Assembly (NCBI GenBank): GCA_041498815.1
Contig: JBGQJC010000008.1
Span: 4,935 to 68,934 of the forward strand
Reading direction: 5' to 3'
From: Alphaproteobacteria bacterium
GTDB taxonomy: Bacteria > Pseudomonadota > Alphaproteobacteria > DATDPM01
Length of the DNA stretch: 64,000 nucleotides
Below the pieces are notes generated by a model. That model saw nothing but the letters and a program-made list of their open reading frames with translations. It searched no databases and was not told the origin of the DNA. The position numbers and the translations under genes were made by a program. Below are positions 27,346 through 33,009 of the stretch, piece after piece (the stretch's first letter is position 1; each line of letters opens with the position of its first letter).

Positions 27346-28085
27346 TTTTTCTAACCCCTGTTTAAAGACCGAGAAACCTTGAATTCGCGCCCCCGGCCAT
27401 CGTTTTAACCTAGCTTAAGGCCGACGACAACGGATAAACACACGGGCACGGCCGCACGTTCCGGCCGTGATTGTGTGCTCTCATTTACGACGGCGATCTT
27501 CATGAGCCCCCAAGAAGATCCCCCGACCCTCGAAGCGACAATGACGGAGCGACTTTACCGAAATAATCGCCAGCACGCCACGCCCGGTGGGCGGTAAATC
27601 GGGACAATATCAGCAGAAAATTGCCATCGGGTGAAGTGAAACTTTGAAATCCTCTGGTGCAAAGAAGCAACAGTGCCGGTCCGCCGCGGAAAACTGCGGA
27701 AAGCCCGCGTCGGATTCCCGGCCCGGACCTTCCCTTGCCACCCGGACCTAGGGTTCGACCGGCCGCCGCCCTCTACCCGCGGATCATCCCACCGTAACAG
27801 CGTAAACGGTTCGTTAATCGCTCCCGTGCTTTGGTGGCGAACCTAACCTTTTGAGTAAGGTGTGGCGGGCGCGCCGAAGTATTCGCGGCCGGTTTTTGCC
27901 CAAGATTATTTGGGTTTCCGCCGCACTGGCCGGAAAGAACGGAAAACACCGGGTATTCCATTTGGATTTCTTCTCATGAATCCCGTATACACCAGCATCA
28001 TTTCTTGTTGCTGCGGGGCATCACTAGGCTCGCGGCGCTCTTTTTCCGCCCTTTGTTTTGGCCGCACGCGGCACGGTTTTGCGCG

Positions 28086-29909
28086 ATGAGCGGGAGCACT
28101 TCCGGAACGTCTCCGAAAACGAATTCCAAGCCGAGCTTGTGGTCGCGCATTGGGCTTCGGGCAAAACTTTTCGCCGTGTTCGGCGCGGTCGCGGCAACCA
28201 CGGTGGTTGCGAGCGGCAATGCCTGGATTTCATACACCGGTCTCGGCCGTACACTCACCGAAGTGACCGCGCGCCGCGTGCCGGCCGTGACCTTGGCGCT
28301 TCGGCTTGACGCCGCAACGGCGAACATGGCCGCGACCGCCGCAAATCTGGCGGCGGCCAAGAGCGATTCCGAGCGCACCGAATCTCTTTCCGCCCTCGAT
28401 GGCGAGCGCGCGCAAGCGCGCACGCTGACCCAGGGACTAGCCGAAATCCTGGGTTCGCCGCAGCCCGTCATAACCGACGCCGCCACCGACCCGGGACGCC
28501 GGGCGCTTGCCGCCATAGAACTTGGAATCGACATCCTTGAGCGCAACCATCATGCCATCGACGATGCGGTCAAGCTGCGCCTGGCGGGATCGCAAGGGCA
28601 AGCCGATGCCGGTGTTTCGGAGCCCAGCGCCCAAGAACTCGCGGCGGATAAAGCCGCCCAGGCCCTGCTGGAAGAGAACCGCAAGGTTTCAGGCAGCCTC
28701 GATCGGGCGATCGGCGAGATCGTCTCGACCGCCCAGTCGGGCGTCGACGCCATCGAAAACGAGGCCGCGGCCGCCATCGAGAACGGAATAATTTTGCTGC
28801 CCGCCATCGCCGCCGTAAGCCTGGGTACGGCGCTTCTTGCCTGGCTGTTCGTCGGCCGCACGATCGTGGGGCGAATCACGGCGCTGGGGACCAGCATGAC
28901 CGAGATCGTCAAAGGCAATTTGAGCGCCCCGATCGAGCGGGAAGGCAATGATGAAATTTCCAAGATGGCGGAGGCCCTGATGTTTTTCCGCGACACCACC
29001 GCCGAGGTCGAGGCCGCCAAGAAGCGTGCCGACGCCGAGCAAACCCGCGCCGCAGAGGAGCGCCGGCGCGACATGATAAAGCTCGCCGACGACTTCGAGC
29101 TGTCGGTCAAGGAAGTGGTGGACCAAGTCGCCGCCTCGGCCACGAAAATGCACACCACCGCGCGGTCCATGTCCGGCGTTGCCGAAGAAACCAAGCGGCG
29201 CTCCGGGATCGTCGCCACCGCATCCGGCCAGGCCACGCAAAACGTCGAAACGGTGGCGGTCGCCGCCGAGGAACTGGCGGCCTCGATCGGCGAGATCGGC
29301 CGGCAAGCGGCGCAATCCTCCGGCATTTCGAGCGCGGCGGTCCATGAGGCCGAGCGGGCGAATGCCGCCATGTCGGGCTTGGCCGAGCGGGTGGCGCGAA
29401 TCGGCGAGGTCGTGCGACTCATCAATGACATCGCGAGCCTGACGAATCTCCTCGCCCTCAACGCCACGATCGAGGCCGCCCGCGCCGGCGAGGCGGGCAA
29501 GGGATTCGCCGTGGTGGCGAGCGAGGTCAAGGAGCTTGCGACCCAGACCGCCAAGGCGACCGAGGACATCACGGCCCAGATCGCGGCCATCCAAGAAGCC
29601 TCGCAAGGCGCCGTCGAGGTCATCACGAGCATCACCGCGACCATCGCCAAAATCAACGGCATCGCCGGCGGGATTGCCGCCGCGGTCGAGGAGCAGACGG
29701 CGGCAACCGGCAACATCGCGCGCAACGTTCACCAGGCCGCCGAGGGCACCCAGCAGGTGTCCGCCAATATCGGCGGCGTAACCGAAGCCGCGAGCGAAAC
29801 CGGGCGCTCCGCCCAATCGGTCCTGGCGGCGGCGGACGAACTGTCGCAGCAGTCCGGCATGCTGCGCGTCCAGGTCAACACCTTCATCGCGGAAATCCGG
29901 GCAGGTTGA
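28086..29909 (+). CDS. Methyl-accepting chemotaxis protein (2 TM, HAMP, MA domain)
   Basis: [48 protein letters not shown]. Confidence 0.92.
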
Positions 29910-29918
29910 GCCCGCGGC

Positions 29919-30173
29919 CTACAAGTCTTCCTTGTTCCAGATATCCACAGTTGTCCCGCTATTTTTTTTCGTTATTCTCGGAAGCTCCATCGCCTCGGTC
30001 GTTCCGTCGTTGAAGATCTTCACATAGGCCATGACCGCAAGCTGATCCGGGACATTCGCCGAGCCACCGGCTTCGCCGACGTAATAGAGAATTCCCCAAT
30101 GCGGTCGCGCATCTGCGGGTAAGACTGACGTGGAGAACTTGTGAGGAACGAAGGCGGTGTTTGGTGCGGCTAT
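29919..30173 (-). pseudogene. Start-less 84-codon reading frame, possibly a remnant of a second islet gene
   Basis: IAAPNTAFVPHKF...WGILYYVGE...MAYVKIFNDG...IWNKEDL*. No canonical start at the 5' end. Confidence 0.3.
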
Positions 30174-31021
30174 TTAATCAGCCGCGTATCAAGTTCCGCA
30201 AGATCGCTGTAGTGCAGAAGCAGGACGCCGTTCATTGAGGCGAGTTGTTGAGCCGCCGTCGTGTAGCGGCTGTTTGTGACGACTGCCGCATGCTGTGCTT
30301 TCTCGTAGCCCTTGCCAGCAACAGCCTCTTGAACCGCCTTATTCCCCACCGGCTGGTTCCAGAGCTTACATTGGAGAACTACGCGAACGTCGTTTTTCTC
30401 CGCAATGACGTCAACGCCCTGGTCTCTGGCCCTCTTGGTCACCTGTGCTTGCCAGCCGGCGCGGCGAAGCTCGTCCGCACAGAACGCCTCAAACTCGGTT
30501 GCTGTCATCCGGTCCGAGAAGCCCTGGAACGTGGTTGCGGTCTTCGAGGCATCTTCAACACGCCTTCCGATCAATAGCGAGAGGCTCTCGCGTTCGTCTT
30601 CGAGAATGGTCCGCTCCCGATCCGTCAGGTGCGGGGCGATCTGACTGTCGATGAAGTAGGCTATCTCTTTCCTCCAGCCTTCCAACTGAAGCTTGCTGTA
30701 GGCGTCGTATCTGACGAGCTGCGCACGTCTCTTTAACAGCGAAGTCATGTGTCGCTCAACAACGGTCTTGGCCAACTGTGTTAAGCTGCGCCGCGCTTTA
30801 GCTCGACTAAAGACACGGTATAAGCGGACAGAGACGCGATAGAGGTGGTAGATGGTTGCTACCACGACAGCACTAACCAAAAGATTGACGAGCACGCCAC
30901 CCATGTCCAGGGATTGCCGCTGAATGCTCCCGAGCACGGCGAACACAGCGAACACGGCCATGCCCATTAACCCAAATAAAACGTCGTCCGGTGTCGGGAT
31001 GTGTCGTCTGCGGCGAGTCAT
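30170..31021 (-). CDS. Membrane-anchored Mrr-family (type IV-like) restriction endonuclease
   Basis: Two N-terminal hydrophobic helices. Mrr_cat motifs EFEAFC, DQGVD, QCK, VGNKAVQEA, VVTNSRYT. Confidence 0.82.
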   Translation of the reverse strand: MTRRRRHIPTPDDVLFGLMGMAVFAVFAVLGSIQRQSLDMGGVLVNLLVSAVVVATIYHLYRVSVRLYRVFSRAKARRSLTQLAKTVVERHMTSLLKRRAQLVRYDAYSKLQLEGWRKEIAYFIDSQIAPHLTDRERTILEDERESLSLLIGRRVEDASKTATTFQGFSDRMTATEFEAFCADELRRAGWQAQVTKRARDQGVDVIAEKNDVRVVLQCKLWNQPVGNKAVQEAVAGKGYEKAQHAAVVTNSRYTTAAQQLASMNGVLLLHYSDLAELDTRLIK

Positions 31022-31086
31022 CGTCTACCTCACCTCCACATATCCGCTCCACTTACTCCCGCGTCTTCTGTGACTACCGGAAGCGG

Positions 31087-31161
31087 TGGCGACCCCAACG
31101 GGATTCGAACCCGTGTTGCCGGCTTGAAAAGCCGGAGTCCTAACCACTAGACGATGGGGTC
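31087..31161 (-). tRNA. tRNA-Glu (anticodon TTC)
   Basis: 75 nt, GACCCCA...TGGGGTC-GCCA. Anticodon arm CCGGC-TTTTCAA-GCCGG. Confidence 0.95.
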
Positions 31162-31215: not shown

Positions 31216-33009
31216 TCAGGCGGGGCGCACCGCGGCCGCGTCGTCAATATACAACTGAACGCGCTCACGCCCCTGCCAGTCGTCGCGCGCGATCCGGCCG
31301 GCGACGTGAACGGCGGCGCCGCGCAGGCGCAAAAGCTCTTTGCCGAGGTCGGAGTTGCCGGCGCGGAACGCGATGCCGCGGAGCGTGCCGTGAGCCCCCG
31401 TCAGTCCGCAGCGCAGGTGCTCGCCCGCGACTTCGGCATAGGAGAGGCGCACGGCGGGAAAGACGAATCTCGGTTCGGCATTGCCCGCGCCGAAGGGGCC
31501 GATGCGATCGAGCTCCGCCACCAGCTCGCGGGTCGCGGCTTCCGGTGCCAGCGCACCGTCGAGCCCGAGACTGGGCCCCAAGTCGATGGAACTCGAGAGA
31601 CCGGCGACACGCTCCGCCAAGAAATCGCGGAACGGTTCGATCTTGCCGCGCTCGACGGTCAAGCCCGCCGCCATGGCATGGCCGCCGCCATTGAGCAGCA
31701 GCCCTCCCTTGCGCGCGGCGATCACGGCGCTTCCGAGATCGATGCCGGGCACCGAACGGGCGGAGCCTTTGCCGATTCCATTCTCGATTCCGATGACGCA
31801 GGCGGGGCGGCCGAATCGCTCCTTGAGGCGGGAGGCGACGATGCCGATCACGCCCACATGCCAGCCCTCGCCCGCTGCGAGCACGATGGGCGAGGCACCG
31901 GTTGAACCCGCCTGCGCCTCGGCGCTGGCCAGAACCTCGGATTCGATCAGCCGGCGCTCGGCGTTGAGCGCGCCCAAGACGGCGGCGATGCGGCGGGCCT
32001 CATCGGCGTCATCCGCGGTCAGAAGCCGGAAACCGAGATCCGATTGCCCGACTCTGCCGCCGGCGTTGATTCGCGGCCCCAGGATGAAGGCCGCGTGATA
32101 GGCGCCGGGCCTGGACTCGAGCCGTGCGCTGTCGGCGAGCGCCGCCAAGCCCAAATTGCCGCGCCCCGCCATCACCTTAAGCCCTTGCGCGACCAAGGCC
32201 CGGTTGAGACCGGTCAAGGGCACCACGTCGCAAATGGTCCCGAGTGCGACGAGGTCGAGAAGCGCCATGAGATCGGGCTCGGGAATCCGATTGGCCGCAT
32301 ACCAGCCGGAATCGCGGAGGAGTCTATTTACCGCAACCGCCACCAGGAACGAGAGGCCGACGGCGGCAAGCTGCTTATGCGGGCTTTGCTCATCCAGCCG
32401 GTTGGGATTGACGACCGCGACAGCCTGCGGCAATCGCTCCTCCGCTTCGTGGTGATCGACCACGATGACATCGAGGCCGAGATCGCGCGCATGAGAGAGC
32501 GCGTCGAATGCCAAGGTCCCGCAATCGACCGTGACCGCGAGCGAGACGCCTTGGGCATGAAGCATTTCCAGCGCCGGCGCGTTCGGCCCGTAACCTTCGC
32601 GCCTGCGGTCGGGGATGTAGGCGCGCGCCTTGGCACCGACGGCGCTTAAGAATCGAACGAGCAAAGCCGACGAGGTGGCGCCGTCCACGTCGTAGTCGCC
32701 GAAGATGGCGATGGATTCGCCCGACCGCACGGCGCGCGCGATCCGCGCCGCGGCCGCGTCCATGTCGAGCAAATGGGACGGGTCCGGCAAATAAGCGCGC
32801 AGCGTCGGATTTAGGAACGACTCCGCTTGCTCCGCCGTGATGCCGCGGGCGGCAAGCACCCGGCCGACGATTTCGGAAACGCCGAGGCGCTGGGTGAGGG
32901 CGAGCGCCGCGCGCTCGTCGCCGCCGCGCAGGCGCCAGCGCTTGCCGCTAAAAGAACGCTCGACTCCAAGGACGGATGAATTCGGCGCCGCGGCGTGAAC
33001 CGCCAGCAT
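31216..33009 (-). CDS. recJ: Single-stranded-DNA exonuclease RecJ
   Basis: GDYDVDG, TVDCG, DHH, ALGTICDVVPL, GPRINAGGR, GSARS, GGHAMAAG. Confidence 0.95.
   Translation of the reverse strand: MLAVHAAAPNSSVLGVERSFSGKRWRLRGGDERAALALTQRLGVSEIVGRVLAARGITAEQAESFLNPTLRAYLPDPSHLLDMDAAAARIARAVRSGESIAIFGDYDVDGATSSALLVRFLSAVGAKARAYIPDRRREGYGPNAPALEMLHAQGVSLAVTVDCGTLAFDALSHARDLGLDVIVVDHHEAEERLPQAVAVVNPNRLDEQSPHKQLAAVGLSFLVAVAVNRLLRDSGWYAANRIPEPDLMALLDLVALGTICDVVPLTGLNRALVAQGLKVMAGRGNLGLAALADSARLESRPGAYHAAFILGPRINAGGRVGQSDLGFRLLTADDADEARRIAAVLGALNAERRLIESEVLASAEAQAGSTGASPIVLAAGEGWHVGVIGIVASRLKERFGRPACVIGIENGIGKGSARSVPGIDLGSAVIAARKGGLLLNGGGHAMAAGLTVERGKIEPFRDFLAERVAGLSSSIDLGPSLGLDGALAPEAATRELVAELDRIGPFGAGNAEPRFVFPAVRLSYAEVAGEHLRCGLTGAHGTLRGIAFRAGNSDLGKELLRLRGAAVHVAGRIARDDWQGRERVQLYIDDAAAVRPA

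What the first reader, a model, noticed from the sequence alone, without database searches (positions are those of the whole stretch)
29910..31086. Low-GC islet at tRNA-Glu encoding a solitary membrane-tethered Mrr nuclease
Seen: GC drops here (31/60 at 30661-30720 versus 48/60 at 31261-31320 in recJ). The gene lies just downstream of tRNA-Glu on the same strand, with two N-terminal TM helices, a helical middle and an Mrr_cat domain (D..QCK). No methyltransferase, integrase or att duplication is present. Known: Mrr-type enzymes cut modified DNA without a partner methylase, and tRNA 3' ends are defence-island hotspots. Membrane-bound anti-phage nucleases have a precedent (SNIPE, a different nuclease fold). 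Inference: a candidate single-gene defence system acting on incoming DNA at the inner membrane.
Basis: partly seen in the sequence, partly recalled or inferred. Interest (0 to 1): 0.65.

Follow-up and report, generated by a model that had tools for sequence, protein, structure and literature searches.

The report
Solitary membrane-tethered Mrr-type nuclease gene
A foreign single gene inserted next to a tRNA gene encodes a DNA-cutting enzyme anchored to the inside of the cell membrane. It belongs to a large, unnamed family that also rides on phages and plasmids and is probably a one-gene weapon against invading DNA, though this has not been tested.

Summary
Window 30170-31021 (-) is an intact 283-aa gene, 65 bp downstream of tRNA-Glu(UUC) on the same strand. 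Its GC is 0.567 against 0.64 for the genome. The protein has two N-terminal TM helices, a helical middle and an Mrr_cat domain with invariant E178, D204 and Q217-C218-K219. No integrase, DNA methylase or att repeat lies nearby.

Two corrections:
- Five relatives have recJ-tRNA-Glu-OmpA with only a short spacer. The real indel is about 3.45 kb (27638-31085) and also holds a chemoreceptor gene of host-like composition.
Neighbours of about 40 homologues are housekeeping genes, not defence islands.

The family is nevertheless patchy, solitary, lower in GC than its flanks in 74 of 80 loci, and mixed across phyla. It occurs on plasmids and as morons inside phage structural operons. An invariant middle module (QL..D.YG..W..E..F) joins the nuclease to interchangeable N-termini: a TM hairpin, sensor-like ectodomains plus one TM, or soluble heads.

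Best reading (0.55): a one-protein nuclease held at the membrane, probably gated, that acts against incoming DNA. The closest analogues are Epona and SNIPE. It is not an Mrr orthologue, so modification dependence is unsupported. It is a new variant of a known kind.

The parts
31087..31161 (-). tRNA-Glu(UUC). The insertion begins exactly at its 3' end.
   Evidence: ARAGORN. Rfam tRNA 68.3 bits. Homology with relatives stops at 31086.
30170..31021 (-). 283-aa membrane-tethered Mrr_cat nuclease gene, with an SD-like GGAGGTGAGG at 31028-31037.
   Evidence: ORF and sequence. The identical protein occurs in two independent assemblies. AF2 model mean pLDDT 89.2.
30836..30982 (-). TM hairpin (about aa 14-62). 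Predicted N-in/C-in, with a short outside loop.
   Evidence: Hydropathy segments at aa 14-30 and 41-57. In 78 two-TM relatives the mean K+R count is 4.5 before TM1, 0.7 in the loop and 4.5 after TM2. Helices 11-36 and 42-90 in the model.
30527..30748 (-). Conserved middle 'DxYG' adaptor module (aa 92-165): helix, beta-hairpin, two helices.
   Evidence: L95, Q101, L102, D106, Y108, W116, E119 and F123 are invariant in 120/120 relatives; G109 in 119/120. hhalign extends the match through this module to TM-less plasmid proteins (E=3.9e-24 and 5.5e-30). No Pfam or PDB match.
30191..30514 (-). Mrr_cat PD-(D/E)xK nuclease domain (aa 170-277) with E178, D204, Q217-x-K219.
   Evidence: Pfam PF04471, E=2.6e-25. 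Foldseek hits: AF1548 (1y88), MspJI, EndoMS, Hjc, Can2. Invariant residues.
29910..30169 (.). Low-GC spacer (0.554) between the convergent nuclease and MCP genes.
   Evidence: Composition. It holds an 82-codon open frame with no significant family hit (best Pfam E=0.042, below cut-off) and is unique in the genome.
28005..29909 (+). Methyl-accepting chemotaxis protein gene (JGI start 28086). It lies in the same indel but has host-like composition.
   Evidence: HAMP + MCPsignal. GC 0.662, codon usage at the 74th percentile. The N-terminal sensor part has no orthologue in five relatives.
27638..31085 (.). Whole segment present here and absent from the nearest relative (about 3.45 kb in place of about 60 bp).
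   Evidence: blastn of the tRNA-Glu-to-OmpA interval of G001. Its positions 1-122 match window 31196-31086 and positions 183-580 match 27637-27257. The same gene order is seen in G002-G005.

Best explanation
A horizontally acquired, stand-alone gene encodes a PD-(D/E)xK (Mrr_cat) DNase. A two-helix hairpin holds it on the cytoplasmic face of the inner membrane.

The protein belongs to a large unnamed family. An invariant juxtamembrane adaptor (L-x5-QL-x3-D-x-YG-x6-W-x2-E-x3-F) couples interchangeable N-terminal anchor or sensor parts to the nuclease.

Most likely function: a one-protein defence or exclusion nuclease against incoming phage or plasmid DNA.

Most likely mechanism: the nuclease is kept at the membrane and gated through the adaptor. 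It fires on an envelope or membrane event that accompanies DNA entry, so DNA near the entry site is cut first.

Shown: gene, architecture, intact catalytic residues, foreign origin, solitary and mobile family, carriage by phages and plasmids.

Inferred: topology, nuclease activity, defence role, gating.
For: - Architecture and active site.
- Topology by the positive-inside rule. Long relatives have signal peptide + LprI, PG_binding_1 or Sel1 ectodomain + one TM + the same adaptor + Mrr_cat, which places the nuclease inside the cell and suggests transmembrane signalling.
- Accessory and foreign: absent from all five relatives that keep the locus. Carried by 1 of 150 other sampled genomes in the family of the Granulicella carrier and by 20 of 121 genomes (the query genome included) in the family of the Bombella carrier. 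Lower GC than flanks in 74/80 loci. Phylum labels are mixed on the tree.
- Solitary: no conserved neighbour gene or flank DNA.
- Mobile-element carriage:
  - the same 2TM-adaptor-Mrr_cat proteins sit as morons inside phage head and baseplate operons;
  - TM-less relatives sit among toxin-antitoxin genes on Acinetobacter plasmids and on E. coli plasmids;
  - a shorter open frame holding only the nuclease domain sits beside relBE on a 4.5-kb Zymomonas plasmid.
- Conservation gradient: nuclease 70%, adaptor 48%, N-terminus 26%. This mirrors SNIPE.
- Precedents: Epona (Mrr_cat + 2 TM, reported as anti-phage) and SNIPE (PMC13190303).
Against: - No experiment exists for any family member.
- Neighbours (+-2 genes and +-7-8 genes) of the closest homologues are housekeeping genes with only sporadic PADLOC hits, so there is no defence-island association.
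- Some copies sit inside core operons (mraY|X|murD, ispA|X|xseB). Some are kept across related species (Bombella, Methylocystis).
- PADLOC models match only the nuclease domain.
- GC3 and codon usage of the window gene are only mildly atypical.
- TM-less relatives show that membrane tethering is not essential to the family.
Confidence: 0.55

Rival explanations
1. SNIPE-like constitutive spatial discrimination. The nuclease is always active but can reach only DNA that crosses the inner membrane, so phage or plasmid DNA is cut during entry. No gating or sensing is involved, and the hairpin is purely an anchor.
For: - Predicted N-in/C-in hairpin with a very short outside loop, which leaves little room for a sensor.
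- SNIPE precedent, with the same pattern of a conserved nuclease and a variable N-terminus.
- No partner or immunity gene.
Against: - Relatives with the same adaptor and nuclease but no TM segment exist on plasmids.
- Other relatives carry large sensor-like ectodomains.
- The adaptor is invariant, which suggests regulation rather than a passive linker.
- A tethered, constitutively active DNase would still meet membrane-proximal chromosomal DNA.
Confidence: 0.2
2. Type IV modification-dependent restriction enzyme, the first reader's Mrr analogy. It cuts methylated, hydroxymethylated or otherwise modified incoming DNA and spares unmodified host DNA.
For: - Mrr_cat domain with the D...QxK signature.
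- Foldseek hits include MspJI and AspBHI.
- Weak PADLOC mREase_IV match, E=6.4e-6.
- Solitary, with no cognate methylase.
Against: - No Mrr_N, SRA or other recognised modified-base reader domain. The N-terminus is a TM hairpin plus an adaptor that matches no known family.
- Mrr_cat is also the effector in ZorD and LmuA, which are not modification-dependent. The best PADLOC hit is in fact ZorD.
Confidence: 0.1
3. Not immunity. Either a selfish or addictive nuclease gene that persists through horizontal transfer, or a domesticated membrane nuclease used in host DNA transactions such as uptake, repair or segregation.
For: - Neighbourhoods are housekeeping, not defence islands.
- Insertion inside core operons.
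- Conservation at a fixed locus in Bombella and Methylocystis species.
- Plasmid copies lie beside toxin-antitoxin stabilisation genes.
Against: - Very patchy distribution even within families.
- Phage moron positions.
- No conserved partner that would link it to a DNA uptake or repair pathway.
- No antitoxin-like neighbour, which an addiction module would need.
Confidence: 0.12

Closest known systems
Epona (single-gene anti-phage cassette of the Vibrio cholerae sedentary chromosomal integron; bioRxiv 10.1101/2024.07.02.601686)
   Same: A single protein described as an Mrr_cat nuclease fused to a two-TM (holin-like) part. It is solitary and reported to protect against phage when expressed in E. 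coli.
   Different: - Epona is an integron cassette, and its blastp homologues are almost confined to V. cholerae.
- This family lives mainly in Acidobacteriota and Alphaproteobacteria, is not in an integron, and has no holin Pfam hit.
- Whether Epona has the DxYG adaptor is unknown, because its sequence could not be obtained here.
SNIPE (membrane-bound nuclease that cleaves phage DNA during injection; PMC13190303)
   Same: A single protein with an N-terminal membrane anchor, a middle domain and a C-terminal nuclease. The nuclease is the most conserved part and the N-terminus is highly variable, with 0-2 TM segments.
   Different: SNIPE has DUF4041 and a GIY-YIG nuclease. Here the middle is an unrelated helical adaptor and the nuclease is PD-(D/E)xK. 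No tape-measure or ManYZ link is known for this family.
EcoKMrr and other type IV restriction enzymes of the Mrr_cat / MspJI group
   Same: Catalytic domain family PF04471 with the D...QxK active site, and no methylase partner.
   Different: There is no Mrr_N winged-helix or SRA-type reader. The protein is membrane-anchored, and its specificity for modified DNA is unsupported.
PADLOC candidate PDC-S02 and ZorD / LmuA Mrr-like effector domains
   Same: The nuclease domain matches these profiles: ZorD 5.5e-17 and PDC-S02 2.7e-14.
   Different: Matches cover only profile positions 173-305 of 334 (PDC-S02) or the C-terminal end of ZorD. The TM hairpin and adaptor are not covered, and there are no Zorya or Lamassu partner genes.

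Membership tests
Mrr / type IV restriction endonuclease (EcoKMrr type) | Mrr_cat PD-(D/E)xK catalytic domain with D...QxK | tested here: met
   PF04471 E=2.6e-25, aa 170-277. D204, Q217 and K219 invariant in 120/120.
Mrr / type IV restriction endonuclease (EcoKMrr type) | N-terminal modified-DNA reader (Mrr_N winged helix or equivalent) | tested here: not met
   No such Pfam hit at E<=1. The N-terminus is a TM hairpin plus a helical module with no PDB match.
Mrr / type IV restriction endonuclease (EcoKMrr type) | Cleavage dependent on DNA modification | not testable with these tools
   Needs biochemistry.
Epona | One protein with two TM helices plus Mrr_cat | tested here: met
   Description of Epona.
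Epona | Sequence homology to the V. cholerae cassette protein / holin-like N-terminal domain | not testable with these tools
   The Epona sequence and locus tag are not in the held text or supplement. No holin family hit for the window protein. The paper reports homologues almost only in V. cholerae.
SNIPE | DUF4041 middle domain and GIY-YIG nuclease | tested here: not met
   Neither family appears in the Pfam scan. The nuclease fold is PD-(D/E)xK.
SNIPE | N-terminal membrane anchor with a cytoplasmic nuclease | tested here: met
   Prediction only: hydropathy and the positive-inside rule, and long relatives with signal peptide + ectodomain + TM.
PADLOC PDC-S02 | Full-length match to the PDC-S02 profile | tested here: not met
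   Only profile positions 173-305 of 334 are matched by aa 151-277. The same holds for four relatives.
Unnamed 'DxYG adaptor + Mrr_cat' family (noted by earlier agents of this scan) | Invariant L..QL...D.YG......W..E...F module directly upstream of Mrr_cat | tested here: met
   Invariant columns in 120 relatives. hhalign to the E. coli and Acinetobacter plasmid proteins spans the module. 2024 clusters at E<=1e-30.
Integrase-mediated tRNA-targeting genomic island | Integrase gene and direct repeat of the tRNA 3' end | tested here: not met
   No integrase within +-10 kb. The best repeat is 13/15 and not significant. The insertion does start exactly at the tRNA 3' end.
Defence-island resident gene | Neighbours enriched in known defence genes | tested here: not met
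   In 150 neighbours at +-2 genes, 7 PADLOC families were hit at E<=1e-10, mostly generic ones (ABC ATPase, radical SAM). The top Pfam families are housekeeping. The +-7-8 gene set is similar.

The most novel reading that the evidence does not exclude
The window protein is the minimal (hairpin-only) member of a large, undescribed class of one-component transmembrane 'receptor-nucleases'. An invariant juxtamembrane DxYG adaptor transmits an envelope signal to a cytoplasmic Mrr_cat DNase. The signal is sensed by interchangeable heads: peptidoglycan-binding, LprI lysozyme-inhibitor-like or Sel1 ectodomains, or the membrane hairpin itself. Phage-inflicted envelope damage at injection would then directly switch on DNA cleavage. 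This would be a defence logic distinct from both restriction-modification and SNIPE.
Probability: 0.25. Interest if true: 0.78.

Novelty: new variant of a known kind. Interest (0 to 1): 0.5.

Why it matters
If the family is an anti-phage or anti-plasmid nuclease, it would be a second, very widespread fold solution to defence by a nuclease at the membrane. It spans 2,024 clusters at 50% identity with E<=1e-30. It would also have been missed by guilt-by-association screens, because it travels alone and lands among housekeeping genes.

The modular series gives a ready-made set of natural variants for asking how a solitary nuclease spares self DNA: hairpin anchor, ectodomain receptors and soluble heads, all on one invariant adaptor.

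For this genome it is one more example of small, integrase-less insertions at tRNA genes.

Tried and rejected
- att site: looked for a duplicated tRNA 3' end in the island. The only candidate (27833-47) is at chance level.
- Conserved partner gene or mobile-element termini: all-vs-all blastp of +-4 neighbours and blastn of 400-bp flanks in 80 loci found nothing beyond close relatives.
- Defence-island enrichment: negative at +-2 and +-7-8 genes.
- PADLOC and NCBIfam membership: domain-level hits only.
- Fold or sequence match for the middle module: none.
- Epona sequence or locus tag: not in the main text or the held supplement, so homology to Epona is untested.
- Spacer 29910-30169: no homology found.
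- Treating the low GC as proof of recent transfer: rejected as sole evidence, because GC3 is near the genome norm.

Full report
**Observation**

The gene is window 30170-31021 on the minus strand and encodes 283 aa. It starts 65 bp downstream of tRNA-Glu(UUC), which lies at 31087-31161 on the same strand. An SD-like GGAGGTGAGG precedes the ATG.

| Segment | GC |
|---|---|
| Nuclease gene | 0.567 |
| Spacer 29910-30169 | 0.554 |
| recJ | 0.686 |
| MCP gene | 0.662 |
| Whole genome | 0.64 |

The gene's GC is at the 3.8th percentile of 1606 long ORFs in the genome. Its GC3 (0.671, 31st percentile) and codon usage (15th percentile) are only mildly unusual. The dip is therefore real, but part of it comes from amino-acid composition.

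Pfam finds Mrr_cat at aa 170-277 (E=2.6e-25) and nothing credible in front of it. Two hydrophobic segments lie at aa 14-30 and 41-57. The AlphaFold model (mean pLDDT 89.2) shows helices 11-36 and 42-90. A helix / beta-hairpin / two-helix module follows at aa 92-161, and then an alpha-beta-beta-beta-alpha-beta nuclease core.

**The locus in relatives**

The protein has no homologue in three genomes of the same genus or two of the same family. All five keep recJ, tRNA-Glu and the OmpA-like gene in the same order. The tRNA and OmpA are separated by about 0.4-1 kb in them, against 3.7 kb here.

Against the nearest relative, homology runs to window 31086 (one base past the tRNA) and resumes at 27637. 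The segment 27638-31085 (about 3.45 kb) therefore replaces about 60 bp. It contains two convergent genes:
- the nuclease;
- a methyl-accepting chemotaxis protein (28005/28086-29909). Its sensor part has no orthologue in the relatives, but its composition is host-like.

The two genes may have arrived separately.

No integrase or DNA methyltransferase is called within +-10 kb. The best tRNA-end-like repeat is at chance level.

**The family**

- A word-indexed search gave 951 relatives. The best are 45-60% identical, mostly 260-300 aa, with the same layout.
- A full profile search of 1.84 billion cluster representatives gave 2,024 clusters at E<=1e-30 and 13,491 at E<=1e-10.
- Among 185,579 species genomes, 375 stretches encode a relative, mainly in Acidobacteriota and Alphaproteobacteria.
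- Carriage is patchy. In the family of the Granulicella carrier, 1 of 150 other sampled genomes has a match. In the family of the Bombella carrier, 20 of 121 genomes do, the query genome included.
- The gene is lower in GC than its flanks in 74 of 80 loci (median -6.5 points).
- A tRNA lies within 500 bp in 9 of 80 loci, usually just upstream on the same strand.
- On a tree of 79 proteins, phylum labels need 9 changes where 4 is the minimum. One well-supported clade mixes an Acidobacterium with three Pseudomonadota. The window protein sits alone on a long branch.

**Solitary, and not in defence islands**

No neighbouring gene is shared by unrelated loci, and no flanking DNA is shared either.

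The 150 genes at +-2 positions around about 40 of the closest homologues are ordinary metabolic and housekeeping genes. At E<=1e-10 only 7 PADLOC families are hit, mostly generic ones such as ABC ATPases and radical SAM enzymes. A set at +-7-8 genes gives the same picture, with one restriction-modification locus.

Individual contexts:
- between mraY and murD in the cell-division cluster;
- between ispA and xseB;
- 5-6 kb from cas1;
- 5-6 kb from druA plus an IS66.

That lowers the defence reading but does not remove it, because mobile elements do carry the family.

**Mobile-element carriage**

- Two IMG/VR phage contigs hold 2TM-adaptor-Mrr_cat genes as morons. One lies between head morphogenesis and prohead protease genes, the other between baseplate hub and wedge genes.
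- In all, about a dozen viral contigs carry relatives that include the middle module.
- On plasmids, TM-less relatives lie among toxin-antitoxin modules in Acinetobacter, and on E. coli plasmids. Earlier notes of this scan call the E. coli ones SSU5-type phage-plasmids.
- A 4.5-kb mobilisable Zymomonas plasmid carries a shorter open frame holding only the nuclease domain, next to relBE.

**Modular anatomy**

| Region | Mean pairwise identity among 120 relatives |
|---|---|
| N-terminus / TM part | 26% |
| Juxtamembrane helix | 30% |
| Middle module | 48% |
| Mrr_cat | 70% |

L95, Q101, L102, D106, Y108, W116, E119 and F123 are invariant in the middle module, and G109 is kept in 119 of 120. E178, D200, D204, Q217, C218, K219 and N227 are invariant in the nuclease.

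Profile-profile alignment carries the match through the middle module into the TM-less plasmid proteins (E=3.9e-24 and 5.5e-30). The conserved unit is therefore adaptor plus nuclease.

Longer relatives have a signal peptide, an LprI-like, PG_binding_1, Sel1 or unknown ectodomain, one TM helix, a basic stretch, and then the same adaptor and nuclease.

The positive-inside pattern is K+R 4.5 before TM1, 0.7 in the loop and 4.5 after TM2. Together with the long relatives, this places the nuclease in the cytoplasm.

Foldseek matches only the nuclease domain: AF1548, MspJI, EndoMS, Hjc and Can2/Cdn1. The middle module has no PDB or Pfam relative.

**Mechanism**

What is shown:
- an intact, foreign, solitary gene;
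- a predicted N-in/C-in hairpin;
- an invariant adaptor;
- an Mrr_cat domain with all catalytic residues.

What is inferred: DNase activity, and a role against incoming DNA.

I favour a gated nuclease (a sensor or anchor, then the adaptor, then the effector) over a purely spatial SNIPE-like mechanism, for three reasons:
- the adaptor is invariant;
- sensor-like ectodomains occur in relatives;
- TM-less versions exist.

In the window protein the outside loop is only about six residues. The hairpin itself would have to be the sensor, or else serve only as an anchor.

The type IV (modified-DNA) idea rests only on the name of the catalytic domain. No reader domain is present, and the best PADLOC hit is in fact ZorD.

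A non-immune role cannot be excluded, given the housekeeping neighbourhoods and the fixed loci in Bombella and Methylocystis.

**Comparison with known systems**

- Epona is a V. cholerae integron cassette described as Mrr_cat fused to a two-TM holin-like part and reported to protect E. coli. It is the nearest described architecture. Its sequence was not obtainable, so homology is untested.
- SNIPE (PMC13190303) is the nearest mechanistic analogue, but it has different middle and nuclease folds.
- Four literature searches found no description of this family.
- Earlier AI notes of this scan had independently flagged the same 'DDYG-Mrr_cat' module from the E. coli phage-plasmid member. I reached the link separately through. 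I treat their wider claims as leads only.

**Verdict**

This is an uncharacterised variant of the known kind 'single-protein membrane-bound defence nuclease', and its function is untested.

Noticed in passing
window 28005-29909 (+): The chemoreceptor (HAMP + MCPsignal) gene lies in the same 3.45-kb indel as the nuclease and is absent at this locus in five relatives. It has host-like GC and codon usage, and its N-terminal sensor part has no orthologue in those relatives.
   Followed up: partly
L093 3705-4118 (-), relative G005: In this same-family genome the tRNA-Glu/OmpA spacer is about 1 kb and holds a different small ORF whose later part looks like a signal peptide followed by a Cys-rich region. 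The spot behind tRNA-Glu is therefore variable across the clade.
   Followed up: no
L098-L103 (JGI metagenome contigs): One family member (P0060) is inserted inside the cell-division/cell-wall cluster between mraY and murD, with two small unknown ORFs. The arrangement was shown at six places on separate contigs.
   Followed up: no
L113 5749-6612 and L112 5950-6777 (IMG/VR contigs): 2TM-adaptor-Mrr_cat genes sit as morons in the middle of phage structural operons. One lies between head morphogenesis and prohead protease genes, the other between baseplate hub and wedge genes.
   Followed up: partly
P0198, P0200, P0135, P0180, P0127 (cluster representatives): Long relatives carry a signal peptide, an LprI-like, PG_binding_1, Sel1 or unknown ectodomain and one TM helix in front of the same adaptor and nuclease. 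This is a receptor-like architecture.
   Followed up: partly
window 29910-30169 (-): The low-GC spacer after the nuclease gene holds an 82-codon open frame (JGI calls a 37-aa ORF). It has no significant family hit (best Pfam E=0.042, below cut-off) and no copy elsewhere in the genome. It may be a gene remnant.
   Followed up: partly
L108 (Zymomonas plasmid pZA1003, 4551 bp): The annotated 130-aa 'restriction endonuclease' covers only the nuclease domain, while the tblastn match starts about 230 bp upstream of it. The copy may be truncated or frameshifted.
   Followed up: no
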